Virus record (IMG/VR): IMGVR_UViG_2585427787_000014
Source of the DNA: a virus
Taxonomy: Duplodnaviria > Heunggongvirae > Uroviricota > Caudoviricetes
DNA: 40,925 nt
Strand: one strand, 5' to 3'
Shown: positions 1 to 39,666 of the stretch, piece after piece
How positions within the stretch are numbered: the stretch's first letter is position 1
Layout: every line of letters starts with the position of its first letter
Position numbers and translations under genes: made by a program
Notes under the pieces: model-generated
Database searches by the model: none
Told to the model about the DNA's origin: nothing
The model's input: only the letters and a program-made list of their open reading frames with translations

Positions 1-516
1 ATGAAATTTAAAAAATGTCTTCTGCCTGTGGCAATGTTAGCGTCATTCACTCTGGCAGGATGCCAGTCAAATGCTGACGATCATGCTGCCGATGTTTATC
101 AAACCGATCAACTGAATACCAAACAAGAAACTAAAACCGTTAATATTATTTCCATTCTTCCCGCAAAAGTTGCCGTAGACAACTCCCAAAATAAACGGAA
201 CGCACAAGCCTTCGGCGCGCTTATTGGCGCAGTCGCTGGCGGTGTTATCGGCCACAACGTCGGGTCTGGCAGCAATTCCGGAACGACGGCAGGTGCAGTT
301 GGCGGCGGAGCTGTAGGCGCGGCAGCGGGTTCTATGGTGAATGATAAAACCTTAGTGGAAGGTGTTTCTTTAACCTATAAGGAAGGCACCAAAGTGTATA
401 CCTCTACCCAGGTGGGTAAAGAGTGCCAGTTTACGACAGGTTTAGCCGTTGTTATTACCACGACGTATAACGAAACGCGTATTCAGCCAAATACCAAATG
501 TCCTGAAAAGAGCTAA
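1..516 (+). CDS. lipoprotein with Gly/Ala-rich glycine-zipper segment; probably a host gene flanking the prophage
   Basis: 171-aa ORF; signal peptide ending in lipobox LAGC; GxxxG-rich stretch (AVAGGVIGHNVG...AVGGGAVGAAAG). Confidence 0.6.
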   Translation: MKFKKCLLPVAMLASFTLAGCQSNADDHAADVYQTDQLNTKQETKTVNIISILPAKVAVDNSQNKRNAQAFGALIGAVAGGVIGHNVGSGSNSGTTAGAVGGGAVGAAAGSMVNDKTLVEGVSLTYKEGTKVYTSTQVGKECQFTTGLAVVITTTYNETRIQPNTKCPEKS

Positions 517-531
517 TAATCAGGAGGAGTC

Positions 532-1071
532 ATGAAGAAAGTTTTTCTTTGCGCCATCTTAGCCTCCTTAAGCTATCCGGCTATCGCCTCATCATTGCAG
601 GATCAACTCTCTGCTGTCGCAGAAGCGGAACAGCAAGGTAAAAATGAAGAGCAAAGGCAGCATGACGAATGGGTCGCGGAGCGCAACAGGGAAATCCAGC
701 AAGAGAAGCAACGTCGCGCAAATGCCCAGGCCGCCGCTAACAAAAGAGCGGCAACGGCAGCGGCAAATAAGAAAGCTCGTCAGGATAAACTGGACGCCGA
801 AGCCTCTGCGGACAAAAAACGCGATCAAAGTTATGAAGATGAGCTACGCAGCTTAGAGATTCAGAAACAAAAACTGGCGCTGGCGAAAGAAGAAGCCCGT
901 GTTAAGCGAGAAAACGAATTTATCGATCAGGAACTGAAGCACAAAGCTGCGCAAACCGATGTGGTGCAATCTGAAGCTGACGCCAACAGAAATATGACTG
1001 AAGGCGGTCGCGATCTGATGAAAAGCGTGGGCAAAGCAGAAGAGAACAAATCGGACAGCTGGTTTAATTAA
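532..1071 (+). CDS. secreted, highly charged (K/E/Q/A-rich) coiled-coil protein; probably host
   Basis: 179-aa ORF with N-terminal signal peptide; AGGAGG Shine-Dalgarno upstream of ATG; followed by a strong terminator. Confidence 0.55.
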   Translation: MKKVFLCAILASLSYPAIASSLQDQLSAVAEAEQQGKNEEQRQHDEWVAERNREIQQEKQRRANAQAAANKRAATAAANKKARQDKLDAEASADKKRDQSYEDELRSLEIQKQKLALAKEEARVKRENEFIDQELKHKAAQTDVVQSEADANRNMTEGGRDLMKSVGKAEENKSDSWFN

Positions 1072-1115
1072 TCGATGTTAGTAACTTCAATCCTATAATT
1101 CTTGAAGATAAAAAA

Positions 1116-1142
1116 CCCTCTGTAGTAACAGAGGGTTTTGTT
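1116..1142 (+). terminator. rho-independent terminator after gene 532-1071
   Basis: Stem CCCTCTGT / ACAGAGGG with loop AGTA, followed by TTTTGTT. Confidence 0.6.
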
Positions 1143-1288
1143 CATTCATAGTGCAGGGTCAAATCATTCCCACTCGATTATTTGCGATACACATAACCAA
1201 TTGAGTGATAACAACTTTCCCATAACTGATTTTCACCGTACCGTTTTATATACCGTCACCGGAAATCAGTACCATGAAAAATGCCATG

Positions 1289-1774
1289 TCACCTGGTCAG
1301 CGAATCGTACTGCTTTTCACAGACTCGTCCGGCTTCGGCGGCCCGATCAGCGTACTCTGCCAGTTGTCGGTTTCGCTCGAGAGATTTGCTGAGCACGTCG
1401 GCAAGCAAAACTCCGGTGTCTGCGGCTGACGCCCCAGAGCCGACAGTGGCGTTATACTGCCTGAGCTGCTCACGGATGGCAACGAGCTGTTGCTGCAACC
1501 TGCCAGCGCGAGCGGCAGCATCAAGAGCATCATTGCGCGCCTGGTCGATAGCACGCTGTGCTTCACGTTCATTTGTCGCTTTCTCCTGTTCGTCATGCAG
1601 ACGCGCTTTCTCATCTTCGGCTTTTCGATCTGCCTTTGCCTGTGCATACCCGGCGTCGTACTGACGGTTGCCGTGTATATTCCAGGCAACAACGCCACTG
1701 ACCACCAGCGCAGCAAGCATCACGACAATAAGCAACTGTTTCCAGTATGTTTTTAATAATACCGAGATCATAAA
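1289..1774 (-). CDS. Rz-like i-spanin (inner-membrane spanin)
   Basis: Start taken at the internal Met (MISVLLKTYWKQLLIVVMLAALVV...) of track ORF 1289-1903. N-terminal TM helix then a charged coiled-coil region; lies immediately downstream of the endolysin with a 7-nt overlap. Confidence 0.6.
   Translation of the reverse strand, partial: FMISVLLKTYWKQLLIVVMLAALVVSGVVAWNIHGNRQYDAGYAQAKADRKAEDEKARLHDEQEKATNEREAQRAIDQARNDALDAAARAGRLQQQLVAIREQLRQYNATVGSGASAADTGVLLADVLSKSLERNRQLAEYADRAAEAGRVCEKQYDSLTR
1297..1572 (-). CDS. Rz1-like o-spanin lipoprotein embedded in Rz in another frame
   Basis: Inside track ORF 1297-1716: signal peptide plus lipobox (MNVKHSVLSTRRAMMLLMLPLALAGC) followed by a Ser/Pro-rich short mature part. 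Start is either Met at 1572 or 1533. Confidence 0.4.
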   Translation of the reverse strand: MNVKHSVLSTRRAMMLLMLPLALAGCSNSSLPSVSSSGSITPLSALGRQPQTPEFCLPTCSANLSSETDNWQSTLIGPPKPDESVKSSTIR

Positions 1775-2394
1775 AGCACCTTGCTGGCAGTGATGTACCG
1801 CGCGCGCCGGTCGTCGATGCCGTTCTGACCGCCATTGATGATCTGCGTGACGCGCACCAGGTCGCCGGTGTACTTCATGCAGCCTTTGGTGGCGAAGAAC
1901 CATGCAGCGCTGCGGGCCGCGTATTCGTCCTGCGCCAGCAGCTCAGGCTGAGAAACCAGATCAACCTTCAGGCCGTTACCGCAGTCACGATAGTTATCCA
2001 GGAATGTTATCCCGATAAGGCCACGCGCCCGGTATTTCCATCCATCACCCGGAGCGTTGTTACCGTAGCGCTTGCTGTACACCAGGTTGGCGATTGCGCG
2101 CTGGCGCTCCAGTGGCAATGCCTTCTCATAGGTCTTCCTGCCAAGCGCGCTGGCCTGGTCAGGAGTAATGCGCCCGGCGCGGATAAAGCCAGCCAGACCG
2201 GCAATGCTGTAGTTGAAATTCTCAATCAGCCTGGTGAATCCGGTGCTTTCATGCCCTGCCTGGGCAATGAACATTGCCTGATGCTGTGGATCAATAATGC
2301 CGAACTCTTTCATCGCTGCGGTGATATGCGGATACCAGCGCACAGCCAGTTGCTCAGTTATACCGGCAGCGCGCCGGAACTGGTTAATGTCCAT
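1768..2394 (-). CDS. endolysin, glycoside hydrolase family 19 (chitinase-like lysozyme)
   Basis: 208-aa ORF; translation resembles GH19-type phage endolysins as I recall them (FIAQAGHESTGF..., GRGLIGITFLDNY...); sits between the holin-like genes and Rz. Confidence 0.75.
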   Translation of the reverse strand: MDINQFRRAAGITEQLAVRWYPHITAAMKEFGIIDPQHQAMFIAQAGHESTGFTRLIENFNYSIAGLAGFIRAGRITPDQASALGRKTYEKALPLERQRAIANLVYSKRYGNNAPGDGWKYRARGLIGITFLDNYRDCGNGLKVDLVSQPELLAQDEYAARSAAWFFATKGCMKYTGDLVRVTQIINGGQNGIDDRRARYITASKVLL

Positions 2395-2692
2395 GTTGAG
2401 ACCTCGATATTTTGAATATCTGCACGACGTTACCGCGCGTCTTCAGAACGGCGGCAAGCATGACAGCATTGATGATGACCTCCGATAAATCGGCGGACAT
2501 TGGTGTGTGATACCAGATTGCGTATGCAGCGCGGACAGGAATGCTGGCGGCGGCAACAATGAGAAAGTAAGCGATCCACCCTCCCCATCTGCGATGTTGA
2601 GACCCATTACGCCTGAATGTGCCGACGCGGATTGCTATACCTGAACAGATAACCGCATTGGCAATAAGCAAAAGCAACTCATGAGTTGTCAT
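2384..2692 (-). CDS. lysis-cassette membrane protein (second holin/antiholin-like component)
   Basis: 102-aa ORF with about three hydrophobic helices; overlaps the holin-like gene upstream and the endolysin downstream. Confidence 0.45.
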   Translation of the reverse strand: MTTHELLLLIANAVICSGIAIRVGTFRRNGSQHRRWGGWIAYFLIVAAASIPVRAAYAIWYHTPMSADLSEVIINAVMLAAVLKTRGNVVQIFKISRSQHGH

Positions 2693-3092
2693 CGTCTTTT
2701 CTCCCCGGGATTAACTCGCGTGGATTATCGGAACGGTGATAGAGCCAGATGCCAATACGGACTGCGACTATTGCTGACACGAAAGCGCCAGCGGAGTACG
2801 CAACCCCTTTCTCAAACATATCTGTGGTGATGCCAGGGAAAGAGGATGCAAAGCCGATGAGGAATGTTGCTGTGGGTTTGTAGAAGAGAAGGCCACAGAG
2901 GAAACTGAGCATCGACAAGAGAACCCGGCGCCGTATCGGATACTCAACTGCTGAGGTAACAAAAATTACCGCACCAGCCAGAGCACCTAGCGCCACCTCT
3001 GGCGGAACTCCTGCGATTACCGCAGCAAGCGACCCCATGCTAAGCCACTGATTTAAAGACTCACTGGTTAGCCCGGCTGACATAATGACCAC
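2679..3092 (-). CDS. holin-like membrane protein
   Basis: 137-aa ORF with multiple TM helices and a charged C-terminal tail (RSDNPRELIPGRKDDDNS); first gene of the lysis cassette. Confidence 0.5.
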   Translation of the reverse strand: MVIMSAGLTSESLNQWLSMGSLAAVIAGVPPEVALGALAGAVIFVTSAVEYPIRRRVLLSMLSFLCGLLFYKPTATFLIGFASSFPGITTDMFEKGVAYSAGAFVSAIVAVRIGIWLYHRSDNPRELIPGRKDDDNS

Positions 3093-3187
3093 CGTTTACT
3101 GTGCATGAAGAACCCCCTTAGTTGGTGAGTCCATCATACACAATAAACCATATATGGTTAAAATTAGTTAAGAATGCTCTTATCAAA

Positions 3188-3204
3188 GTTACCCATCAGG
3201 TAAT
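3188..3204. promoter_or_regulatory. 17-bp palindrome copy (GTTACC-CATCA-GGTAAT) upstream of the lysis cassette
   Basis: Read directly from the sequence; between the tailspike stop (3211) and the holin start (3092). Confidence 0.5.
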
Positions 3205-3210
3205 TTATAA

Positions 3211-4665
3211 TTATTGCAAATATCCTTTTTTGTTTTTTAGCATTCTCGTTAACGCCTCTGTCCATGAAGCCATGATACTGATTTGCCCCTCAACTGTAGG
3301 ATGGATGTTGTCACCATACCATCCTATGTTTGCTCCAAAGTTTCTGCGCATATCAGCAAATTCATAGCCATTTTGTATGCAGAACTTTTTCAGCGCATGA
3401 GTATATTTTGCATGCGCGGCATAGTTAGCAGTAGTTACACCGTGAATACCACTATGCTCCTTAGTAGTAAAAATTGGGAAAATGCCAAAAACAGGGATAG
3501 CACCTGCGGCAACTATTTTATTTGCTATAGTCTGAACGTTTGTTACATACTGAGCTACAGCGGTACCACCTTGCTGGTCGTTAGTTCCTATCATACAAAG
3601 TACAACATCATGAGGTGAGTAATCTGTTGTTGAGCCTTCACCGGAAGACCAATAGGATGAACTGGTACCACTTACAGCATAATTTGTAATTGATACCTTA
3701 CCTACGTTGTCTGAGTTCTGTATAAAAGATGGTAATAGTTTTGTTATATCGTTGCTGCACCATGCGCCATAGCTAATTGAGTCTCCTATTACCCCAATAT
3801 TCAACGGACGCTTAACTCTCACTTTATAGTTTGACGTTTTAAGACAATCCAAAAAAATAACACCTTTGGCATCGCCACTACCCAACAAAATGAATCCTGC
3901 GTTAGCTACGGCTCCATTGAATCTATAAACTGGAAAGCCGTTAATAATAAATGTCATTACTGAATCATTAACAACAAATCCAAGATTAACCTGCTGATTA
4001 CTAACCCATCCATACGCACCACCGTTAGGGAGGGTGTAGGACTCATTTATTGTTTGAGTTCCATAAAAATTAAATCCTTTAACCATTAAGGTTGCACTTG
4101 ACACTGTTACATATGCTAATATAACCTCGTTTGAGGTTTTTATAAATACACCACATGATTCAGACATTCCACTTGTAAACACATTGATCTCATAAAGAGA
4201 ACCATTCTCAAGTGATGTTGGGTATAGAACCTGTGGGTTCGCTGAGAAATCAGATGACCACGTCACAGTGCTTGATGTTACAATTCCTGTTCCTGAGATG
4301 CTAATGTCTCCTGTTGAAACATTATAGACTTTCTGATTCCAGCTCGTCAGATCCACAACAGAAGATAACTCATTTAGTGACATGTTAACTAAACCAGGAG
4401 CAACATTATACAACTCCTTCAAGTCAACGAATGTATTTGCAGGTTTAACTAAAGTTGTTCCACTTACAGGATTTTTAATTCTTAAATTTGTTAATAATAA
4501 CAAATCTTTTGTATTTGGATTTTCATCAATATTAAATGTTATACCATCATCAGCATGAATTTTCAATCCTGATAAATCAGGCCGACCGCCAGAAAAAAAA
4601 AACGGTACCAGCCCCGTCAAAGTATAATGTTTCTCCAATTTCTGAAAGATAACTACGGGCAGCAT
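3211..4665 (-). CDS. tailspike C-terminal part with SGNH/GDSL esterase domain (downstream frame of a split tailspike)
   Basis: 484-aa ORF. C-terminal SGNH hydrolase blocks: GDS (IGVIGDSISYG), GxND (CMIGTNDQQGG), DxxH (GDNIHPT). Overlaps upstream ORF 4577-5788 across a T10 run. AT-rich. Confidence 0.65.
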   Translation of the reverse strand: MLPVVIFQKLEKHYTLTGLVPFFFSGGRPDLSGLKIHADDGITFNIDENPNTKDLLLLTNLRIKNPVSGTTLVKPANTFVDLKELYNVAPGLVNMSLNELSSVVDLTSWNQKVYNVSTGDISISGTGIVTSSTVTWSSDFSANPQVLYPTSLENGSLYEINVFTSGMSESCGVFIKTSNEVILAYVTVSSATLMVKGFNFYGTQTINESYTLPNGGAYGWVSNQQVNLGFVVNDSVMTFIINGFPVYRFNGAVANAGFILLGSGDAKGVIFLDCLKTSNYKVRVKRPLNIGVIGDSISYGAWCSNDITKLLPSFIQNSDNVGKVSITNYAVSGTSSSYWSSGEGSTTDYSPHDVVLCMIGTNDQQGGTAVAQYVTNVQTIANKIVAAGAIPVFGIFPIFTTKEHSGIHGVTTANYAAHAKYTHALKKFCIQNGYEFADMRRNFGANIGWYGDNIHPTVEGQISIMASWTEALTRMLKNKKGYLQ

Positions 4666-5788
4666 TATATTGAGTGAAAGAATCTGTTACCCCATCATAC
4701 TTAATACCCCACTGCCTCGCCCTTGTCGGATATAAGGACTCTACATACATGCCACCTGCAATAGAAAATATATGCCCTCCATCATCAGTAGCGGATCCAC
4801 TGCGGATTACTCCAATATTTCCACCTCCATCATTCTTTGAGTAATAACCAGACCATTCAACCATCATTCCATTGTACGATGAGTCAAAAACAACATGGTG
4901 GGCATTAGATAACACGCCAGACCTTAGATCTGCTACTGTAGAGAAAGTCAGTTTTACAACATTATTGTCGAGGTAATTCTCAAGCGTTCCGAAGTACTTA
5001 TCGCCAATAAATGACGCCCCGTTACTGGACGCAAGATCAGACCTTAAGCTGGCATCGCCAACACTAAGCCACTTACCACTTCCTATCCCCCCTGTGCTCT
5101 CAGGTGTAGAGTCGGTGGGGACTACTTTTGGTAGTGTTCCATCCCACCTGAACCATTCGCCTGAGCTTTCCTGGAGAAGAACGTCGTTAGGATAGTTGAT
5201 GGTATTACCCAGCTCAAAAGACCTCTTCGTGTTATAGCCATACAGTCCATTCTTCAATGTATCAATGATAGTTGCCAATAGGTTACTCAAATCACGATAA
5301 AGATCATCAATATATTTTTTTGTAGCTGCATCTTGTGGCATAGACGGATCACGGAGGTTTCTTATATAGAATCCCAGCGCATCATAGAAACTGGCAATGC
5401 TGCTTGGTCTTTTTAGTGCCAATCTGTTATCACTAAAAGCCTGCTGAATTAGCATCGTCAGTTTATCAAAAGCATCTTCATGTACTTCTGCGAAGAACTT
5501 ACCCTGATTTCTGAGATCTGTTTCCTGGGTAACTGGCAACTCTCTGGATATCGAAATCTGATAACCATTAGCAAGAGGAGCAGACAAAACAACATTTCCT
5601 CCAGTGTATCCACCAGCGCCAGTTACCGTATAACCGGTATCCAGAACCAATTCTGTTACGTTCCCGTTCAGGTCAGACACCTGAACAACCAGGTCGGATT
5701 TTTTGAAAATACGGAAGGTATACGGAAATGATGTCGTAACGCCGTTACCTGTGTATTCGTTGTGGTCAACTTCGGTTGAGACCGTCAT
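4577..5788 (-). CDS. tailspike N-terminal (virion-attachment) part (upstream frame)
   Basis: 403-aa ORF ending five codons after the T10 run. N-terminus (MTVSTEVDHNEYTGNGVTTSFPYTFRIFKK...) matches my recollection of conserved tailspike head-binding domains of epsilon15/phiV10-like podoviruses. Confidence 0.65.
   Translation of the reverse strand: MTVSTEVDHNEYTGNGVTTSFPYTFRIFKKSDLVVQVSDLNGNVTELVLDTGYTVTGAGGYTGGNVVLSAPLANGYQISISRELPVTQETDLRNQGKFFAEVHEDAFDKLTMLIQQAFSDNRLALKRPSSIASFYDALGFYIRNLRDPSMPQDAATKKYIDDLYRDLSNLLATIIDTLKNGLYGYNTKRSFELGNTINYPNDVLLQESSGEWFRWDGTLPKVVPTDSTPESTGGIGSGKWLSVGDASLRSDLASSNGASFIGDKYFGTLENYLDNNVVKLTFSTVADLRSGVLSNAHHVVFDSSYNGMMVEWSGYYSKNDGGGNIGVIRSGSATDDGGHIFSIAGGMYVESLYPTRARQWGIKYDGVTDSFTQYNAARSYLSEIGETLYFDGAGTVFFFWRSA
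4593..4602. repeat. A10/T10 homopolymer at the junction of the two tailspike reading frames
   Basis: Ten consecutive A on the plus strand; both tailspike ORFs read through it (VFFF in the upstream frame, PFFF in the downstream frame). Confidence 0.9.
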
Positions 5789-6401: not shown

Positions 6402-6557
6402 ATGCGTTAAGCACAGCTATATCCGAATTATGGTGGGCTGGGCAGGGGTCCGAAAGGACGCCGGTACCACTTAGGCCGGTACGCCAACCTTGTCCAGTTC
6501 ACCACCAGTAATTGGCGTTGCGGTGGTGATTAAAATCACTAAGTGGAGATAACCACC

Positions 6558-7268
6558 ATGGCTAATGCTCAAACTGCCATCTTCAAATTTGAATCTGTTA
6601 ACCCTATCCGTTCCATCATTATCGATGGCCAACCATGGTTTGTAGCCCAAGACGTTTGTAGTGCGCTGCGTATCCAAAACGTCACCCAAGCACTTGAAAA
6701 ACTGGATGATGATGAAAGGTCTATGTTCAACATAGGGCATGAACATCGTGCAATTTTTGACAGCCGAGTAAAAGAGATCAACATCATCTCCGAGTCAGGC
6801 CTCTACACACTGATCCTCCGCTGCCGCGACGCAGTGACACCAGGCACTATCCCATACCGCTTTCGTAAATGGGTTACAGGTGAGGTTCTTCCTCAGATCC
6901 GCCGCACCGGAAGTTACATTAAAAACTCGCTCCCGCAGGAAGAGCGCATAAAGATGGTTGCCGACCAGGTAGCCAACGCCACAGCATCAGCAGTGATGCA
7001 GGCGATGAAGATAGAGAACAAAACCTACAGTGCCCCACTGAAGCCCGGCTACCGCAGCCTGATTCATTCGCCGTCTGGTGTTCTCGGCCTGACGGAGAAC
7101 TCACTGCTGATGAATCTGCTGAACCAGTTACAGGACGACGGGCACGACGTATCGGGCGCGGCGGCGGAGCTGACCACCATGTTCTGCTACATCGTCGGTG
7201 TGAGCAAATGCCTGCGTGATATCCAGACGCACGCGGAGTACATCAACGACAAGGCAGGGTTCTTCTGA
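6558..7268 (+). CDS. Bro-N domain antirepressor-like protein
   Basis: GGAG 9 nt before ATG 6558 (track ORF begins at GTG 6543). N-terminus (AIFKFESVNPIRSIIIDGQPWFVAQDVCSALRI...) has Bro-N/antirepressor character; C-terminal ~80 aa paralogous to the 5985-6242 product. Confidence 0.6.
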   Translation: MANAQTAIFKFESVNPIRSIIIDGQPWFVAQDVCSALRIQNVTQALEKLDDDERSMFNIGHEHRAIFDSRVKEINIISESGLYTLILRCRDAVTPGTIPYRFRKWVTGEVLPQIRRTGSYIKNSLPQEERIKMVADQVANATASAVMQAMKIENKTYSAPLKPGYRSLIHSPSGVLGLTENSLLMNLLNQLQDDGHDVSGAAAELTTMFCYIVGVSKCLRDIQTHAEYINDKAGFF

Positions 7269-7339
7269 CGGGCGGCGGCACAGGGATGTGCCTTTAAATA
7301 ATTCTGTACAGATTGCAGACTGTGGGTGAATAGCGTACT

Positions 7340-7356
7340 ATTACCTCAAGGGTAAA
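7340..7356. promoter_or_regulatory. 17-bp palindrome copy (ATTACC-TCAAG-GGTAAA)
   Basis: About 60 bp upstream of small ORF 7416-7595. Confidence 0.5.
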
Positions 7357-7415
7357 CGGATTGGTTTCATTTTTATTAATCCGTGTAATGAACTTATGAG
7401 ATATGAGGTAATGTC

Positions 7416-7595
7416 ATGCGAAACGAAAAATTGCAGATGCGTAGAGCGCAAGCTGCCGCAAGACGTTCTTTCAATGGAAGCGTAGAGTGCGTAAAAGTTA
7501 CTATGACAAAAGATCACGCAAGTCGCGTATCCCGCGCTTTCTTTGATTCTCGTAACAATAAGGAAAATTATGAGTTCGTCTGCGTCGCAGAATGA
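7416..7595 (+). CDS. small basic protein (59 aa) overlapping the start of the YafO-like gene; candidate antitoxin/regulator
   Basis: Not in the ORF track (<60 aa). ATG preceded by GAGGT; translation MRNEKLQMRRAQAAARRSFNGSVECVKVTMTKDHASRVSRAFFDSRNNKENYEFVCVAE; overlaps the next gene by 26 nt in another frame. Confidence 0.3.
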   Translation: MRNEKLQMRRAQAAARRSFNGSVECVKVTMTKDHASRVSRAFFDSRNNKENYEFVCVAE

Positions 7596-8115
7596 TAAAA
7601 ATCAAATTGTCAGATATAAGGGTCGAGTATTGCATACGCAAAATTTCTCGGCCCTTTGTGCATCTGATCTTGAGCTGAAGAAAGTATCTGATGCCTTTAC
7701 CCAGTATTGGAAAACGGGATACCATCCATCTCTTGGTAAAGATGCTGCATTTGCTCGTCCGACAGAAATGCTTAAACTAAATGTCAGGCATACTCATGTC
7801 GATAACCAAGACTATATTCCAGAAGATAGTGATAAAAAACACACTGGTAAAAAATCATCTTGGGATGCATGGAAAAAAATAGCGTCTGTGCAAGTAAAAT
7901 GCATACCAACAAGTAATTGCTTTTTAGTTTATTCGGTAAATCACAATCGTGATGCGCTGGTTATGTTTTTTGTTGACGCAGATGCCCACAACATAACTGA
8001 GCAAGAAGAGTTTAAAGAGGCAGCAATCACTATCAGTTATCAATTCTTTGAGAAAACAAAAACAGAACCAATGCCTTTAGAAGAAGATCTTTTTTCTGAT
8101 AAATGGAAGGAATAA
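7570..8115 (+). CDS. YafO-family toxin-like protein (type II TA-like candidate)
   Basis: AAGGA before ATG 7570 (track start 7543). Translation resembles E. coli YafO as I recall it (SLGKDAAF...NVRHTHV...CFLVYSV). AT-rich; has its own terminator. Confidence 0.45.
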   Translation: MSSSASQNDKNQIVRYKGRVLHTQNFSALCASDLELKKVSDAFTQYWKTGYHPSLGKDAAFARPTEMLKLNVRHTHVDNQDYIPEDSDKKHTGKKSSWDAWKKIASVQVKCIPTSNCFLVYSVNHNRDALVMFFVDADAHNITEQEEFKEAAITISYQFFEKTKTEPMPLEEDLFSDKWKE

Positions 8116-25609: not shown

Positions 25610-26500
25610 ATGCTTGACTTCATCCGTGACATTTACTCCTCTTTCCGCCAAGCATCTCTTGAGCGGGTGAAAAGCCCGTTCCTTGGGGCATTTGTTTTTT
25701 CCTGGCTTTGCTTTAATTGGCAGATGTTAGCAATTCTATTTTTTAGTTCTAAGGATATTGAAAAGCGCCTTGCTATTATTAATGGCTCTTTCGGCATCGT
25801 CAGCTTTTTAATTGCGCCAATATGCACTACAGCATTGATAGTTATCCTTTTACCGCAAATTAATAAATTGATTACAATAATACAAGATAAACCTAACTCA
25901 GACACAATTGAAATGAGCCTTGCATCTAAAATAAAGATCGCCGAACTGCAGCAACTATTAGCAGAAAATGAAGCAAGAAAGAAACTTGCTGATAAAAAAG
26001 AAGAACGCTTCATTGAAGAGAATATTATTTCAATAAAAAAAGACCATGAAAAAGCAATAGATAACCTTAAAGACAAAGAAAGTAAAATCTCAAATCTCAC
26101 GGACACAATAACTGAACTTCAGAGCAAACTGGTTAAAGCTGAGGCCACTCTCAAAGTTGAACAGGAGTCAAGATCCCAAGTGCAGAATGAATTGATTATT
26201 GAAAAAGAGAACAAGCGGAAATTAGAAGACAACATTCTGCACCTTAATTTAAGTTTAAAAAAAAACCAATCAGAATTGGCCATTGCAAAAGAAGCCTATG
26301 ATAATACCTTGATGGCTTATAATGAACTTAACACAACATTAAAAAAAGCAGAAAGCTCAATAATAAACTTCAATGCTAACTTTCCTTTTTTAACTGACAT
26401 AAATAACAGCACCCCAAATACATACTTAAAAATAAATAAAAATGCATGGGAGCATTTAGTTAGTTTAAATTTAAGTCTAAAGGAGAAAATACAAAAATAA
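25610..26500 (+). CDS. AT-rich accessory gene: membrane-anchored coiled-coil protein of unknown function (candidate exclusion/defence gene)
   Basis: 296-aa ORF on the strand opposite the structural genes, inserted between terminase and portal. Two N-terminal hydrophobic helices, then a long K/E/L/N-rich heptad-like region. AT content visibly much higher than surrounding phage genes. Confidence 0.6.
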   Translation: MLDFIRDIYSSFRQASLERVKSPFLGAFVFSWLCFNWQMLAILFFSSKDIEKRLAIINGSFGIVSFLIAPICTTALIVILLPQINKLITIIQDKPNSDTIEMSLASKIKIAELQQLLAENEARKKLADKKEERFIEENIISIKKDHEKAIDNLKDKESKISNLTDTITELQSKLVKAEATLKVEQESRSQVQNELIIEKENKRKLEDNILHLNLSLKKNQSELAIAKEAYDNTLMAYNELNTTLKKAESSIINFNANFPFLTDINNSTPNTYLKINKNAWEHLVSLNLSLKEKIQK

Positions 26501-29890: not shown

Positions 29891-30646
29891 TTAAACTGCT
29901 AGTTGCAATTGCATTTCAAAGCGGTCGCGTTGTTCACAATACGCAAGAGAACCAGGGCTATTGTGTGCCTCAATCCGTTCTACCATTAATGCTGCGCGTG
30001 TCTCTTTACTTGCAGGTGCATAAGCCCCAGACCAGGCTTTATCAATACCGATGTTTCGAGCGACGTTCGTACTATCTGCGCTGGCTAAGGGTAATTTTGT
30101 GAATATCAGCGGATTTAACATGCGCAATCCATGTAGTTTCGTAACCGGCTGACCATGCCCATCAACAATGTGACGAATCAGGTCTTTCATTCTGGCTACC
30201 GCAAGAGTTGGGCGCTTTACGTCATAGTCGCCACAACTACCGATAGCCACTCGCGGAAACTCATTGCACAAATGAATAAATCGCTCGTCACTTTCATTCA
30301 TGTGCCACACTGGAACGCCAGCTAGTTTTCCGTGAGGCCACTCATTCAGAAGCGCATCATTTTCCTCCTCTCCGCCATCAATAACATCCGGGATAATGGC
30401 AAAATCGAATCCTGGGTGATTCTTCCAGCGAGCAACAAACTCGTAGTAATCGCTCCAGTCGATTTTGTTTTTGCCAGCTGCTTTCCAGGCGGTGAATGCA
30501 CCGTTGTCCAGCGCGAACGACTGACAGTATTCAGCCGCGAGATTGATCTGGCCTGAATGCGCAAAACTGATAAACGCATGTCGCCCTTTCCATGCTCTCA
30601 TTGCGCACGTATCAGGAGTAATAGGCCCACCGTGGTAGTGAATCAT
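29891..30646 (-). CDS. hypothetical enzyme-like protein; weak hint of a tRNA-guanine-transglycosylase-like (DpdA-type) fold
   Basis: Start taken at MIHYHGGP (track ORF extends to 30688). Motif LDNGAF loosely recalls the TGT catalytic DSGGF block. Unverified. Confidence 0.3.
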   Translation of the reverse strand: MIHYHGGPITPDTCAMRAWKGRHAFISFAHSGQINLAAEYCQSFALDNGAFTAWKAAGKNKIDWSDYYEFVARWKNHPGFDFAIIPDVIDGGEEENDALLNEWPHGKLAGVPVWHMNESDERFIHLCNEFPRVAIGSCGDYDVKRPTLAVARMKDLIRHIVDGHGQPVTKLHGLRMLNPLIFTKLPLASADSTNVARNIGIDKAWSGAYAPASKETRAALMVERIEAHNSPGSLAYCEQRDRFEMQLQLAV

Positions 30647-30647
30647 C

Positions 30648-31055
30648 TCACTCTCCTTTGATGCGAATGCCAGTAGCGCGGATTGCATCGATGACTTCAG
30701 AAACTTTGTATGCCATTACCGTTTGGTAATCATCGTGAAAATCTGTTCGATGAAGCATGCTGCTACGTTCCGGGAGCAGTATTTCCCGCGCTTCCAGTTC
30801 TGCAATGCGCTTTTTTGCTGCTTCCAGTTCATCCAGTAATTCCAGCACGGTAGCCGGATTAGCCTTGGCAACAAAATCCCGGACTGGCTTACAATCAATC
30901 TCCGCAATGGGTTGATACGATGTGTAGCCATGCTGTCTTGTATTACTACCGTGACGAATAACGAAAAAATCACCATTTATTTTTTTAGCCTGCCACTTAT
31001 CTTCACCGGCTTTCTCCGCCGCCTCACGCAGTGCCTGGTAATTAATTTCGCTCAC
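30648..31055 (-). CDS. ead/Ea22-like protein
   Basis: 135-aa ORF; segment ATVLELLDELEAAKKRIAELEA typical of Ea22-like proteins as I recall them. Confidence 0.5.
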   Translation of the reverse strand: MSEINYQALREAAEKAGEDKWQAKKINGDFFVIRHGSNTRQHGYTSYQPIAEIDCKPVRDFVAKANPATVLELLDELEAAKKRIAELEAREILLPERSSMLHRTDFHDDYQTVMAYKVSEVIDAIRATGIRIKGE

Positions 31056-32159: not shown

Positions 32160-32945
32160 TTACTTGATAAATCCTGACGCCTTTCCCCGCCTGTATTCCT
32201 CCATCAGCCACTGCGCCGGTGTTATTCCCCCCAGGGTGGCGGCGTTAGGCATACACCCGAAACTTCGCCCTGGTGGATGGTAAACGTCTCTCCCTGTGTC
32301 CGGAGGCGTACTCATGGGTTCTGGCTTTGCCTGTATGCTGATCACCGGATCGGGTATCTGCTGTCCGGAAGCCACCTTTTTCGCCCAATCATCGAGCAGC
32401 CTGCGCGCGTGTTTCTCAACCTCAATCTCGCTAAGCTGGCGCTGATACATTGCACGGCGGGTATCACATACGACCCAGTACATAACCGGATGCCGCCACG
32501 GGAATCTTTCGGGACCACCAGGATATAAACTTTTTTCCTTGCTGTACCGGTGAAACTCCGTCATCACATCGTCAATGGTGACGCCAAGAACCATCTTGCT
32601 GTCTTTACACCACTTGATAAATTGCCCTGGCGACGGCCAGAACGGAGATTCACTGGCGCGGGCGTGGCGCATACCAGCAGAAACCTGTTCACGGGTTCGG
32701 ATCCCACCTTCGGCAAACGCAGCAATCCACTGCTGTTTTGCAGCGACTTCCTGCTCTGGCATCTTCAGGTTGGTTACCACTGCCGCCGGAAACAGTTGTT
32801 TCAGCTGTTTGAAAAGGGCATCAACAAGCCTCTCTGCTGACATGTTCACCACATTGTCATTGTTGACGTACTGATGCTCATAACCTGACATGCGAGAAAG
32901 GGCTTCTCCGTCACGGTTTTGTATCGCGGTAAAAACGTTGTTCAC
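32160..32945 (-). CDS. replication protein P-like (lambda P family helicase loader)
   Basis: Similarity to lambda P as I recall it (AAKQQWIAAFAEGGIRTREQVSAGMRHARASESPFWPSPGQFIKWCKD). Proposed GTG start at 32945 preceded by GGAGGA, overlapping the O-like stop as GTGA; track ORF runs to 32960. Confidence 0.7.
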   Translation of the reverse strand: MNNVFTAIQNRDGEALSRMSGYEHQYVNNDNVVNMSAERLVDALFKQLKQLFPAAVVTNLKMPEQEVAAKQQWIAAFAEGGIRTREQVSAGMRHARASESPFWPSPGQFIKWCKDSKMVLGVTIDDVMTEFHRYSKEKSLYPGGPERFPWRHPVMYWVVCDTRRAMYQRQLSEIEVEKHARRLLDDWAKKVASGQQIPDPVISIQAKPEPMSTPPDTGRDVYHPPGRSFGCMPNAATLGGITPAQWLMEEYRRGKASGFIK

Positions 32946-33757
32946 AAGAAATCCTCCCACGCTTCAGGGCTGTTCCAGTGCGGAACGTTGTTATCAGGTA
33001 ATGTTGATTGCTTCTGTCTGCTAATCTGCAGCCGCCTTGCCAGCTTCTGCTCCCACTGTGCCTGATGGTATGCCTTACCCTCAGCCATCCAGTAAATTCT
33101 GAACTCTGCAAGTTCCTGTGCCGTTGGCAGACTGTCCAGGTAGATCCCCTGCAATGAGCTTTTCCGAAGAAAGTCATCTGATGGCTGCCATTGTTCATGC
33201 ATGACAAATTTGCCTAATTGCCCTGGCCCACCAGGAGGAGCAAAGTTATTCATCACGGCGTTGTTTGCGCCGGGGTCATGAGGCACAGAATCCCCGCTTT
33301 TTGTCCTGCTCTCCCTCTCTTGGTTAAATGACTGGTTATATGACTGGTTCTGGATCCCGTTTTTGGGATCATTCAACATCCCGTTTTTGGGATCATTCAA
33401 CATCCCGTTTTTGGGTATATTACCGTTTTCGGTAACATTACCGTTTTCGGGTTCATTGCCCCTCTCCCGGTTGCCTTTAATGTTCCCGTTTTTGGTTATA
33501 TTAAGAGAGAAAACCCGCACCCTTTTTGTCGCTCCCTTTCTCTCTCCGGTATCTGAAATAAGCCCCATTTTCATGAGCGATATAAGCCCGGCCTGCACGG
33601 TTTTTTTATTCAGGCAAGTGTCTTTAACGAGGCGTTCTATGCTGGGGTAGCAGAGGTTATATTCATCGGCTCTGTCAGCCATCGAGAGCAGTATGAGCTT
33701 TAATGACGAGCTACCTGGATCTGTCTCCCAGGCCCAATCTGTTGCATGTCTGCTCAT
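32942..33757 (-). CDS. replication initiator (lambda O-like) with HTH N-domain and internal repeat region
   Basis: 271-aa ORF; N-terminal HTH-like region (LKLILLSMADRADEYNLCYPSIERLVKDTCLNKKTVQAGLISL), central repeat-encoded segment (KNGMLNDP x2), immediately upstream of the P-like gene. Confidence 0.6.
   Translation of the reverse strand: MSRHATDWAWETDPGSSSLKLILLSMADRADEYNLCYPSIERLVKDTCLNKKTVQAGLISLMKMGLISDTGERKGATKRVRVFSLNITKNGNIKGNRERGNEPENGNVTENGNIPKNGMLNDPKNGMLNDPKNGIQNQSYNQSFNQERESRTKSGDSVPHDPGANNAVMNNFAPPGGPGQLGKFVMHEQWQPSDDFLRKSSLQGIYLDSLPTAQELAEFRIYWMAEGKAYHQAQWEQKLARRLQISRQKQSTLPDNNVPHWNSPEAWEDFL
33353..33460. repeat. iteron-like tandem direct repeats inside the O-like gene (candidate origin)
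   Basis: Two perfect 24-bp units (GATCCCGTTTTTGGGATCATTCAA / CATCCCGTTTTTGGGATCATTCAA) plus a degenerate third, then two 18-bp units (ATTACCGTTTTCGGTAAC / ATTACCGTTTTCGGGTTC); a further CCCGTTTTTGG copy at about 33484. Confidence 0.6.
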
Positions 33758-38067: not shown

Positions 38068-38367
38068 GTGAGAAAGTTAAGCCGACTTGAAAAATATCAC
38101 ATGAACAAGGTTTCAATGCGCAGCCCTTCAAAGGTTGTTGCCGTTACTCCTGCGGCGATAGAGATCGAAAAACGCGCGATTGAAAGAGAGAAAAAAGGGC
38201 AGTTCCGCATTGCCGCCCACCTTTGGCTTCAGTGTATGGATGTTGCTTCTGGTGATGTTGAGCGTGCAAGGATCGCGGTTCGCAGGGACCAATGTATCAC
38301 AAAAGGTAACGGCCTTCGCCGTGGCGACTATAGCGGCATAGGATGTTGTGGGGTGGTTTATGACTAA
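38068..38367 (+). CDS. hypothetical small regulatory-type protein
   Basis: 99-aa ORF, GTG start with GAGGG upstream (alternative ATG at 38101). Confidence 0.4.
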   Translation: MRKLSRLEKYHMNKVSMRSPSKVVAVTPAAIEIEKRAIEREKKGQFRIAAHLWLQCMDVASGDVERARIAVRRDQCITKGNGLRRGDYSGIGCCGVVYD

Positions 38368-39010
38368 GAAATACACACTAATCTATGCAGATCCACCCTG
38401 GGTATACCGGGACAAAGCCGCAGATGGTAATCGCGGTGCCGGTTTTAAATATCCGGTTATGAGTGTGCTGGATATCTGCCGCCTTCCTGTGTGGGATTTG
38501 GCCGATGAAAACTGTCTGTTGGCCATGTGGTGGGTGCCAACACAACCACTCGAAGCGCTAAAAGTTGTTGAAGCCTGGGGATTCCGTCTGATGACCATGA
38601 AGGGCTTCACGTGGATAAAATGTGGTAGTCGACAACCAGATAAACTGGTTATGGGTATGGGACACATGACTCGCGCCAATAGTGAAGATTGCCTGTTTGC
38701 AGTAAAGGGAAAACTACATCCGCGCATTAATGCAGGGATCGTTCAGTCATTTACCGCACCGCGGCTTGAGCATTCAAGAAAACCAGATGTCGTTCGTGAA
38801 AAACTTGTGCAATTGTTAGGCGATGTTTCTCGCATTGAACTGTTCGCCCGCCAGTCGTCTCATGGCTTCGATGTTTGGGGTAATCAGTGCGAAGACCCGG
38901 CAGTGCAACTAACTCCTGGATACGCGTTGGATATTGCCAGATTAACAAATGCATTCAGCAATGCTCCGCTGTCACCAACAGACAACCAGGGGCGGGAGCG
39001 TGCAGCATGA
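38360..39010 (+). CDS. MT-A70 family DNA N6-adenine methyltransferase
   Basis: DPPW catalytic motif near the N-terminus ([12 protein letters not shown]); start MTKKYT preceded by GGGGTGG (track start 38348). Confidence 0.7.
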
Positions 39011-39666
39011 ACCTATATCAACGCATCAATGGCGCTGACTGGTGCAATATCTTCGTCGTCGGCGATCTGCATGGGTGCTACACGCTGCTGATGAACGAAC
39101 TCGACAAAGTTTCATTCGACCCGGCGCGCGATTTGCTTATTTCCGTTGGTGACCTTGTTGACCGCGGCGCTGAAAACGTCGAATGCCTGGATTTGATTAC
39201 TATGCCTTGGTTCCGAGCTGTTCGTGGCAACCATGAGCAGATGATGCTGGATGCACTGGTCAACGGCGGAAGTTTCGGACATTGGATGTCAAACGGCGGT
39301 GGATGGTGGCACCAACTTGATTCTGAGCAGGATGTGCAACTCAAATACCTTCTGCCAAAGGTTACCAACCTCCCGATGATTATCGAACTGGTTACCGGCA
39401 ATAAGAAGGTCGTCATCTGCCACGCAGACTACCCGCACAACGAATACGCATTCGATAAGCCAGTACCGGAAGAAATGGTGATATGGAATCGTGAGCGGGT
39501 TAGCGACGCGCAGGACGGTATTGTCTCGGAGATAACCGGTGCCGATTTGTTCATCTTCGGTCATACGCCAGCACATCACCCACTGGTGTATGCAAACCAA
39601 ATGTACATCGACACCGGCGCAGTGTTCTGCGGAAATCTGACGCTTACCAAAGTCCAGGAAGGATAG
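39007..39666 (+). CDS. Ser/Thr protein phosphatase (metallophosphoesterase, lambda NinI-like)
   Basis: Start MNLYQRI overlapping the methylase stop (ATGA); metallophosphatase motifs GDLHG, GDLVDRG, GNHE. Confidence 0.75.

What the first reader, a model, noticed from the sequence alone, without database searches (positions are those of the whole stretch)
29891..30688. Enzyme-like nin-region protein with a weak TGT/DpdA-like hint
The product (start likely MIHYHGGP) has an LDNGAF block loosely resembling the catalytic DSGGF block of tRNA-guanine transglycosylases. DpdA-type enzymes that insert 7-deazaguanines into phage DNA belong to this superfamily and are known in phages. I could not confirm this; it is a hypothesis only. 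If true, together with the MT-A70 methylase the phage would carry two DNA-modification functions.
Basis: inference. Interest (0 to 1): 0.5.

Follow-up and report, generated by a model that had tools for sequence, protein, structure and literature searches.

The report
Stand-alone phage DpdA DNA-guanine transglycosylase

Summary
The ORF is real: minus strand, 29891..30646, 251 aa, starting MIHYHGGP. The longer 30688 start is an in-frame extension. The LDNGAF block (30494..30511) holds an Asp that is invariant in 74 homologues.

The product belongs to the phage DpdA family:
- PHROG 887 "queuine tRNA-ribosyltransferase", E 2e-103. The experimentally validated CAjan DpdA falls in the same PHROG.
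- hhalign to CAjan DpdA: 98.9% probability, with the published active-site residues aligned.

It is 93% identical to Salmonella phage SPN3UB YP_007011024, which Hutinet et al. 2019 list among "DpdA-only" phages. It is 36-38% identical to the DpdAs of phages 7-11 and MED16, whose DNA carries low levels of dADG.

The window has no preQ0 synthesis genes, so any base must come from the E. coli host.

Most likely function: post-replicative exchange of a small fraction of phage guanines for a host-made 7-deazaguanine. That is inferred, not shown.

No Pfam or NCBIfam model detects the protein. The gene is labelled "hypothetical protein" in 204 of 5,426 complete E. coli genomes.

Known kind, low novelty, modest interest.

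The parts
29891..30646 (-). dpdA-like CDS, 251 aa plus TAA stop (29891..29893); stand-alone phage DNA-guanine transglycosylase homologue
   Evidence: ORF. Start chosen from the SD sequence, the upstream stop and homologue lengths. PHROG 887 E 2e-103. hhalign to CAjan DpdA 98.9%. Model pLDDT 92.1.
30647..30688 (-). In-frame upstream extension of the mechanical ORF; probably not translated as part of this protein. It overlaps the end of the upstream ead/Ea22-like ORF and contains the GGAG ribosome-binding site at 30653..30656.
   Evidence: Sequence; homologues start at MIHYHG.
30494..30511 (-). Codons for L46-D47-N48-G49-A50-F51. D47 is the proposed general acid/base and F51 the base-stacking residue.
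   Evidence: D47 invariant 74/74, F/Y51 72/74. Aligns to CAjan D63/S64/F67. Corresponds to DSGGF in E. coli Tgt.
30374..30394 (-). Codons for I85-P-D87-V-I-D90-G91, the loop after strand 4 holding the candidate guanine-edge-binding Asp (D87 or D90)
   Evidence: hhalign puts D90 opposite CAjan D105. Within the clade, however, D87 is conserved 72/74 and position 90 is Asp in only 41/74.
30302..30313 (-). Codons for P112-V-W-H115; H115 is the counterpart of CAjan H132 in the base pocket
   Evidence: H115 73/74 conserved; alignment; residue list in PMC7544227.
30122..30139 (-). Codons for K170-L-H172-G-L174-R. H172 is invariant and is probably the hydrogen-bond partner of the nucleophile. L174 is the counterpart of CAjan F189.
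   Evidence: H172 74/74, L174 69/74; alignment. Cap10 has an analogous H226/D248 pair.
30071..30082 (-). Codons for S189-A-D191-S192; D191 is the proposed catalytic nucleophile
   Evidence: D191 and S192 invariant 74/74. Aligns to CAjan D206. Lies at the end of strand 8 of the model, as D256 does in bacterial DpdA.
38348..39010 (+). MT-A70-type DNA methyltransferase gene: the phage's other predicted DNA-modification function (context only, not part of the dpdA gene)
   Evidence: PHROG 359 'DNA methyltransferase' E 2e-119. Orthologues are annotated MT-A70 / DNA methyltransferase.

Best explanation
The gene encodes a stand-alone ('singleton') phage DpdA. This is a compact TIM-barrel member of the tRNA-guanine transglycosylase superfamily that acts on double-stranded DNA. 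Proposed mechanism, by analogy with TGT, bacterial DpdA and CAjan DpdA: a target guanine is flipped into the barrel pocket. It is stacked by F51 and L174, and its edge is read by D87 or D90 and by H115. D191, oriented by H172, attacks C1' and releases guanine, forming a covalent enzyme-DNA intermediate. D47 deprotonates N9 of an incoming 7-deazaguanine base, which resolves the intermediate. The phage encodes no FolE, QueD, QueE or QueC, so the base would have to come from the E. coli queuosine pathway as preQ0 or the QueC intermediate ADG. The gene lies in the rightward early operon just after the replication genes. It would therefore be expressed during lytic growth and act on newly replicated phage DNA before packaging. 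The expected result is a sparse, motif-specific mark at about 0.02-0.1% of G, probably detected as dADG as in phages 7-11 and MED16, rather than the ~30% replacement seen in phages that carry their own preQ0 pathway. [quoted passage not shown] Inferred: the DNA substrate, the host-derived base, the timing, the level of modification, and any protective effect.
For: - PHROG 887 'queuine tRNA-ribosyltransferase', E 2.3e-103 over residues 1-248. CAjan DpdA, whose deletion abolishes dPreQ0 in phage DNA, is in the same PHROG.
- hhalign of a 70-sequence family profile against CAjan DpdA: probability 98.9%, E 3.9e-17, 172 columns.
- The CAjan active-site residues published in PMC7544227 map as follows: D63 to D47, F67 to F51, H132 to H115, G153 to G136, F189 to L174, D206 to D191. 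D47, H172, D191 and S192 are invariant in 74 sequences.
- AlphaFold2 model: pLDDT 92.1, pTM 0.89, eight strand-helix units.
- Foldseek against BFVD gives 30 hits at E<=1e-3, many named queuine tRNA-ribosyltransferase.
- 93% identical to SPN3UB YP_007011024, listed as a DpdA-only phage in Hutinet 2019 Supplementary Data 1.
- 36% identical to 7-11 DpdA (E 6e-33). 7-11 DNA has 50 dADG per 10^6 nt.
- 38% identical to MED16 DpdA (E 8e-44). MED16 DNA has 354 dADG per 10^6 nt.
- No homologue of FolE, QueD, QueC, QueE or the YhhQ-like transporter in the window (annotation).
- A 37%-identical homologue in Caulobacter phage DMCA abuts a QueD-like gene.
Against: - No biochemical or mass-spectrometry data exist for this protein or any close (>40% identical) relative.
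- Another DpdA-only phage, Mycobacterium phage Orion, has no modification at all. That fits its host lacking preQ0 synthesis.
- In 7-11 and MED16 the mark is very rare. In MED16 it did not protect against any restriction enzyme tested, so the biological benefit is unclear.
- Those two phages carry dADG rather than dPreQ0, and the step that makes the amide is unknown.
- The Asp aligned to CAjan's base-recognition D105 (position 90) is not conserved in this clade.
- Pfam, NCBIfam and the PADLOC bacterial-DpdA model do not match the protein. A family profile finds no PDB sequence.
Confidence: 0.6

Rival explanations
1. The protein is a genuine DpdA homologue, but in this phage it produces no meaningful DNA modification. 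It could be a dispensable accessory gene that is inactive, or limited to trace activity by the scarcity of free preQ0 in E. coli, with no role in evading restriction.
For: Phage Orion (DpdA-only) has no modification. 7-11 and MED16 have only 0.02% and 0.13% of G modified, and MED16 DNA was cut by all the G-containing-site enzymes tested. The gene is mosaic: it is absent from close relatives of this phage such as TL-2011b and present at >=99% identity in only one of 50,697 phage records.
Against: All catalytic residues are invariant across a family with >7,800 detectable members. The exact allele is kept intact in 201 of 204 E. coli genomes that carry it. That pattern argues for selection on an active enzyme. 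Orion's lack of modification is explained by its host lacking preQ0 synthesis, which is not the case for E. coli (established knowledge of the queuosine pathway).
Confidence: 0.2
2. The protein is an active TGT-fold enzyme with a different substrate. It might exchange a base in host or phage tRNA. Alternatively it might handle a protein-linked 7-deazaguanine as Cap10 does in type IV CBASS, for example as a decoy or antagonist of such defence.
Against: By sequence the protein groups with validated DNA-modifying DpdA, not with Cap10 or TGT. No QueC-like Cap9, CD-NTase or Cap11 is encoded nearby. The protein lacks the Zn subdomain and C-terminal RNA-binding parts of TGTs. The two relatives examined experimentally do have modified DNA.
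Confidence: 0.15
3. The resemblance to TGT is superficial, and the protein is an unrelated TIM-barrel enzyme such as an aldolase or a sugar-phosphate enzyme.
Confidence: 0.03

Closest known systems
'DpdA-only' (singleton) phage DpdAs of gamma-proteobacterial phages: SPN3UB YP_007011024, HK106 YP_007151699, SEN1, SfI, BTP1, Athena1, 7-11 (Hutinet et al. 2019, group 3) and Pantoea phage MED16 DpdA
   Same: Direct sequence family: 93% identical to SPN3UB, 68% to Athena1, 36-38% to 7-11, MED16, SEN1 and HK106. Same size (about 234-266 aa), same invariant residues, no phage-encoded preQ0 pathway, and placement as an accessory gene in early operons of temperate phages.
   Different: Nothing material. 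This copy sits in a phiV10/TL-2011b-like podovirus backbone whose sequenced relatives mostly lack the gene. Its nearest phage copy (99%) is in an Stx1a-converting phage.
CAjan DpdA (DpdA1; Queuovirinae), experimentally validated preQ0 DNA transglycosylase
   Same: Same PHROG. hhalign 98.9%. Catalytic Asp pair, His, Gly and stacking residues aligned. No CxCxxC zinc motif in either sequence.
   Different: Only about 24% identity over 172 columns. CAjan DpdA is 306 aa, with extra N- and C-terminal segments. CAjan encodes FolE, QueD, QueE, QueC and a transporter next to dpdA and replaces about 32% of G. This clade conserves D87 rather than the position aligned to CAjan D105, and has N48 in place of S64.
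Bacterial DpdA of the Dpd restriction-modification system (S. Montevideo, PDB 7UI4)
   Different: 14% identity. No match to the PADLOC DpdA model. The window protein lacks the roughly 130-residue Ins8 subdomain with the structural Zn site. No DpdB ATPase or DpdC partner is present. Bacterial DpdA is 413 aa.
Cap10 of type IV CBASS (PDB 9NTN)
   Different: 9% identity. Cap10 binds a deazaguanylated CD-NTase N-terminus and works with Cap9 and Cap11. None of these partners is in the window.
tRNA-guanine transglycosylases (bacterial TGT, archaeal ArcTGT, QTRT1/2; Pfam PF01702)
   Different: No detectable sequence match by HMMER or single-sequence hhalign. No Zn site, no N-terminal lid, no tRNA-binding extensions.

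Membership tests
Phage DpdA (DNA 7-deazaguanine transglycosylase) | Significant sequence or profile similarity to an experimentally validated phage DpdA | tested here: met
   hhalign of the family profile against CAjan DpdA: 98.9%, E 3.9e-17. Both fall in PHROG 887.
Phage DpdA (DNA 7-deazaguanine transglycosylase) | Two catalytic aspartates: general acid/base in the D-S/N-G-A-F motif and a nucleophile (CAjan D63 and D206) | tested here: met
   D47 and D191 align to D63 and D206. Both are invariant in 74 sequences.
Phage DpdA (DNA 7-deazaguanine transglycosylase) | Guanine/preQ0 pocket residues (CAjan S64, F67, D105, H132, G153, G154, F189) | tested here: inconclusive
   F51, H115, G136 and L174 match and are conserved. 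N48 replaces S64 and S137 replaces G154. The residue aligned to D105 (D90) is Asp here but varies in the clade (41/74), while nearby D87 is conserved (72/74). No model coordinates were available to decide which Asp reaches the pocket.
Phage DpdA (DNA 7-deazaguanine transglycosylase) | Conserved histidine that distinguishes DpdA from DpdA2 (Hutinet 2019) | tested here: inconclusive
   H172 (KLH) is invariant and aligns to CAjan H187. The paper gives the histidine as position 196 without naming the reference protein. I did not align a 9g or bacterial DpdA sequence to confirm it is the same residue.
Phage DpdA (DNA 7-deazaguanine transglycosylase) | 7-deazaguanine present in virion DNA and dependent on the gene | not testable with these tools
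   Needs LC-MS/MS of phage DNA. Only relatives at 36-38% identity have data (7-11 and MED16).
Phage DpdA with its own preQ0 pathway (Hutinet 2019 groups 1-2) | Co-encoded FolE, QueD, QueE and QueC (with or without an amidotransferase) | tested here: not met
   tblastn of the CAjan pathway proteins against the window: nothing below E 0.02. PHROG/Pfam annotation of the ORFs scanned found no pathway gene, and the corresponding structural module of TL-2011b has none annotated. This places the gene in group 3, 'DpdA only'.
TGT superfamily | (beta/alpha)8 barrel most similar to TGT-family structures | tested here: met
TGT superfamily | Match to Pfam PF01702 (TGT) | tested here: not met
   No Pfam hit for the protein or for any of 70 family members. 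The validated CAjan DpdA also has none, so this does not discriminate.
TGT superfamily | Structural Zn2+ site (CxCxxC...H) | tested here: not met
   The protein has five scattered Cys and no CxCxxC motif, and ends 60 residues after the nucleophile. E. coli Tgt has CDCYTC. CAjan DpdA also lacks the motif, so this feature does not define phage DpdAs.
Bacterial DpdA (Dpd R-M system) | Match to a bacterial DpdA model, with DpdB/DpdC partners | tested here: not met
   No PADLOC DpdA hit. Neighbouring ORFs are ead/Ea22-like, DUF551-like, replication and regulator proteins.
Cap10 (type IV CBASS) | Operon with a QueC-like Cap9, a CD-NTase carrying an MGGSGG N-terminus, and Cap11 | tested here: not met

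The most novel reading that the evidence does not exclude
The enterobacterial singleton clade may be a functionally distinct DpdA subtype rather than a pathway-less copy of DpdA1. On this reading it takes the amide base ADG, an intermediate of host QueC, directly. Alternatively it inserts preQ0 and hydrates it itself. Either way it would write a rare, motif-specific dADG mark whose role is something other than blocking restriction enzymes, for example evading or triggering a modification-sensing defence, or marking phage DNA for packaging or replication. Points in favour: both tested singleton phages carry dADG with almost no dPreQ0 and no known DpdC. The clade has its own conserved residues around the pocket: D87 instead of the CAjan D105 position, N48, H5-G6, N96 and R175.
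Probability: 0.15. Interest if true: 0.6.

Novelty: already known. Interest (0 to 1): 0.3.

Why it matters
If the enzyme is active, this prophage family would mark its DNA with a 7-deazaguanine using only one gene plus the host queuosine pathway. Together with its MT-A70 methyltransferase, that gives the phage two predicted DNA-modification functions. This gene allele is in 204 of 5,426 complete E. coli genomes, and the same protein is also encoded in an Stx1a-converting phage. Such marks could influence which strains these temperate phages can enter, and how modification-sensing defences see them.

There is also a practical point. Neither Pfam, NCBIfam nor PGAP names this family, and even the validated CAjan DpdA escapes Pfam. 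Deazaguanine-modifying potential in prophages is therefore systematically under-annotated.

None of this is new in kind. The singleton DpdA group was described in 2019, and its function remains an acknowledged open question.

Tried and rejected
- Pfam and NCBIfam scans of the protein returned nothing.
- A Pfam scan of all 70 alignment members found no TGT hit in any.
- phmmer and profile hmmsearch against PDB sequences returned nothing, or only coiled-coil noise. The same was true for CAjan DpdA.
- hhalign of the family profile against the single E. coli Tgt sequence, in local, relaxed and global modes, gave no meaningful alignment. I therefore could not tie the family to canonical TGT at the sequence level. 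A real TGT profile was not available to me.
- The PADLOC bacterial DpdA model did not match the window protein, only CAjan DpdA weakly.
- I looked for a conserved neighbour that might explain the amide (a DpdC-like function). Neighbours differ between SPN3UB, HK106, 7-11, MED16 and this window, so none stands out.
- I considered a Cap10-like protein-conjugation role and a tRNA role and rated both unlikely (see rival explanations).
- A literature search for later work on singleton DpdAs in temperate phages found nothing beyond Hutinet 2019/2023 and the MED16 paper.

Full report
**Observation**

The finding points to window 29891..30688. A 265-codon ORF lies there on the minus strand.
- It has a GGAG 6 nt upstream.
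- The preceding ORF (30648..31055) ends with a TGA one base before it.
- Homologues in other genomes are 248-252 aa and start MIHYHG.
- RefSeq annotates a 756-nt gene at this place in E. coli genomes.

The gene is therefore 29891..30646, encoding 251 aa. The LDNGAF block is residues 46-51 (30494..30511).

**Context**

The window is a phiV10 / TL-2011b / PAS61-like temperate E. coli podovirus genome. On the minus strand the order is:
- cro-like repressor
- O-like replication initiator
- P-like helicase loader
- Holliday-junction resolvase
- two ead/Ea22-like ORFs
- this gene
- a DUF551-like ORF
- a regulator
- small and large terminase

A sigma-70-like promoter precedes the cro-like gene. No terminator-like site on that strand falls between 34083 and 28657. 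The gene therefore looks like part of the rightward early operon, in the positional equivalent of the lambda nin region.

TL-2011b has other genes at this place. Only one phage record, an Stx1a-converting phage, carries a >=99%-identical copy. The gene is thus a mosaic accessory gene.

**What the protein is**

Pfam and NCBIfam find nothing. PHROGs gives family 887, 'queuine tRNA-ribosyltransferase', at E 2.3e-103.

The family is large. More than 7,800 proteins were detected in the word-indexed search, nearly all labelled 'hypothetical protein'. The exhaustive search found 813 cluster representatives at 50% identity.

In phage genomes the closest relatives are mostly in temperate enterobacterial and Vibrio phages. 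One of them, Salmonella phage SPN3UB YP_007011024, is 93% identical and lies in the nin region of that lambdoid phage. Supplementary Data 1 of Hutinet et al. 2019 (PMC6884629) lists it as a DpdA of the group that encodes 'DpdA but no G+ or preQ0 biosynthesis protein homologs'. HK106, SfI, SEN1, BTP1 and Athena1 are listed with it.

**Link to a validated enzyme**

Phage CAjan DpdA is required for the dPreQ0 that replaces about 32% of guanines in that phage. It falls in the same PHROG.

A profile of 70 homologues of the window protein aligns to it with 98.9% probability (E 3.9e-17, 172 columns).

Kot et al. 2020 (PMC7544227) name the CAjan active-site residues: general base D63; pocket S64, F67, D105, H132, G153, G154 and F189; nucleophile D206. 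Through the hhalign alignment these correspond to:

| CAjan | Window protein |
|---|---|
| D63 | D47 |
| S64 | N48 |
| F67 | F51 |
| D105 | D90 |
| H132 | H115 |
| G153 | G136 |
| G154 | S137 |
| F189 | L174 |
| D206 | D191 |

In 74 aligned sequences D47, H172, D191 and S192 are invariant, and H115, G136 and L174 are nearly so.

One difference stands out. The position aligned to CAjan D105 is Asp in only 41 of 74 sequences, whereas D87, three residues earlier, is conserved in 72. Which of the two reads the guanine edge could not be settled without model coordinates.

**Fold**

An AlphaFold2 model built from the alignment is confident (pLDDT 92.1, pTM 0.89). It shows eight strand-helix units. 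D47 lies at the end of strand 3 and D191 at the end of strand 8. Those are the positions described for D95 and D256 of bacterial DpdA.

Foldseek against viral predicted structures gave 30 hits at E<=1e-3. Many are named queuine tRNA-ribosyltransferase.

Cap10 has a catalytic H226/D248 pair. The invariant H172-D191 pair of this family, 19 residues apart, is a plausible counterpart (inference).

The protein has no CxCxxC zinc motif. CAjan DpdA has none either. E. coli Tgt has one.

**Negative results that do not count against the assignment**

CAjan DpdA itself has no Pfam hit and no PDB sequence hit. It matches the PADLOC bacterial DpdA model only weakly, over the G-G...D region (E 1.3e-3). hhalign against a single Tgt sequence is uninformative. 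The family is simply too far from canonical TGT for sequence-to-profile methods.

**Pathway genes**

None of FolE, QueD, QueE, QueC or a YhhQ-like transporter is encoded in the 40.9-kb window. tblastn with the CAjan proteins gave nothing below E 0.02. Family scans of the ORFs tested found none, and the TL-2011b annotation of the corresponding structural module lists none. The gene is therefore a singleton.

E. coli makes preQ0 for queuosine (established knowledge; tgt and queA seen).

A 37%-identical homologue in Caulobacter phage DMCA directly follows a QueD-like gene. That is a small piece of contextual support for a deazaguanine role.

**Likely function**

Experimental data exist only for relatives at 36-38% identity.
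- Salmonella phage 7-11: DpdA 36% identical to the window protein; 50 dADG per 10^6 nt, about 0.02% of G.
- Pantoea phage MED16: 38% identical; 354 dADG per 10^6 nt, about 0.13% of G, with trace dPreQ0. The mark gave no protection against the restriction enzymes tested.
- Mycobacterium phage Orion: its host cannot make preQ0, and its DNA has no modification.

The best-supported explanation is a post-replicative, low-frequency exchange of guanine in phage DNA for a host-derived 7-deazaguanine, by the TGT-type double-displacement mechanism. I put the homology at about 0.95. I put the claim that this phage's DNA is actually modified in a gene-dependent way at about 0.6.

The rivals are:
- a conserved but practically silent gene (0.2)
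- another substrate, such as tRNA or a protein-linked base (0.15)
- an unrelated TIM-barrel enzyme (0.03)

**Novelty and interest**

The kind is already described: the singleton DpdA group of Hutinet et al. 2019, with a 93%-identical member listed by accession. The copy here adds only a new phage backbone.

Open questions remain for the whole clade. Where does the amide of dADG come from? What is a mark on 1 in 1,000-5,000 guanines for? Does the clade-specific pocket (D87, N48, H5-G6, R175) reflect a different base preference? These give it some residual interest.

The gene is present at >=95% nucleotide identity in 203 of the 204 complete E. coli genomes (of 5,426) that carry it, each time labelled 'hypothetical protein'. 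That is a real annotation gap.

Noticed in passing
window 33364-33383 and 33388-33407 (+ strand coordinates): Two identical 20-nt copies of TGGGATCATTCAACATCCCG, 24 nt apart, inside the O-like replication initiator gene (32942..33757, minus strand). They look like origin iterons, as in lambda ori within gene O. The terminator scan reported them as hairpins.
   Followed up: no
window 25610-26500 (+): A 296-aa ORF on the opposite strand to the surrounding head and terminase genes. It has no Pfam hit and only sub-threshold SMC/JetC- and LmuB-like coiled-coil matches in PADLOC (E 0.007-0.016). TL-2011b has a different, shorter gene here. Possibly a moron or accessory gene.
   Followed up: partly
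window 29891-30646 and 204 E. coli genomes: Annotation gap. No Pfam, NCBIfam or PGAP name covers this DpdA family, and even the experimentally validated CAjan DpdA has no Pfam hit. RefSeq phage records call it 'queuine tRNA-ribosyltransferase' while bacterial records say 'hypothetical protein'.
   Followed up: yes
window 30374-30394 (-), residues 85-91: In the singleton clade D87 is conserved (72/74), whereas the position aligned to the CAjan base-recognition Asp (D90 here) varies: D 41, G 16, E 9. 7-11 has Gly and MED16 has Glu there. The N-terminal H5-G6, N96 and R175 are also clade-specific. The pocket may differ from that of DpdA1.
   Followed up: partly
window 6543-8115 (+): A moron-like block between tail genes: a Bro-N domain protein (6543..7268), and an ORF with a sub-threshold YafO-toxin match (7543..8115, 23.2 bits against a cut-off of 25). 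In TL-2011b the corresponding gene is annotated as a YafO-family toxin.
   Followed up: no
window 3211-5788 (-): Two overlapping long ORFs. One carries a TSP1/Gp66-type tailspike N-terminal domain (4577..5788). The other carries a C-terminal GDSL lipase/acylhydrolase domain (3211..4665). This suggests a tailspike with esterase (O-antigen deacetylase-like) activity, possibly split by a frameshift or read in two frames.
   Followed up: no
window 1-1071 (+): At the left end there is a glycine-zipper ORF with a sub-threshold TraT-like match (1..516). It is followed by a DUF5384 protein (532..1071). These are candidate lysogenic-conversion or exclusion genes next to the lysis cassette (holin 2679..3092, endolysin-like 1768..2394).
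   Followed up: no
window 38348-39666 (+): The MT-A70-type methyltransferase ORF (38348..39010) is overlapped by 124 nt by the mechanical ORF of a NinI-like Ser/Thr phosphatase (38887..39666). The PHROG match starts at residue 39 of the phosphatase, so its real start is probably further downstream. TL-2011b has a DUF1382 gene in that position instead.
   Followed up: no
L009 (Caulobacter phage DMCA) 5705-6726: A 37%-identical homologue of the window protein directly follows, with overlapping stop and start, a 98-aa '6-carboxytetrahydropterin synthase' (QueD-like) gene in a temperate Caulobacter phage. No other preQ0 genes are annotated within the 12.7-kb stretch examined. This is a partial-pathway arrangement.
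   Followed up: partly
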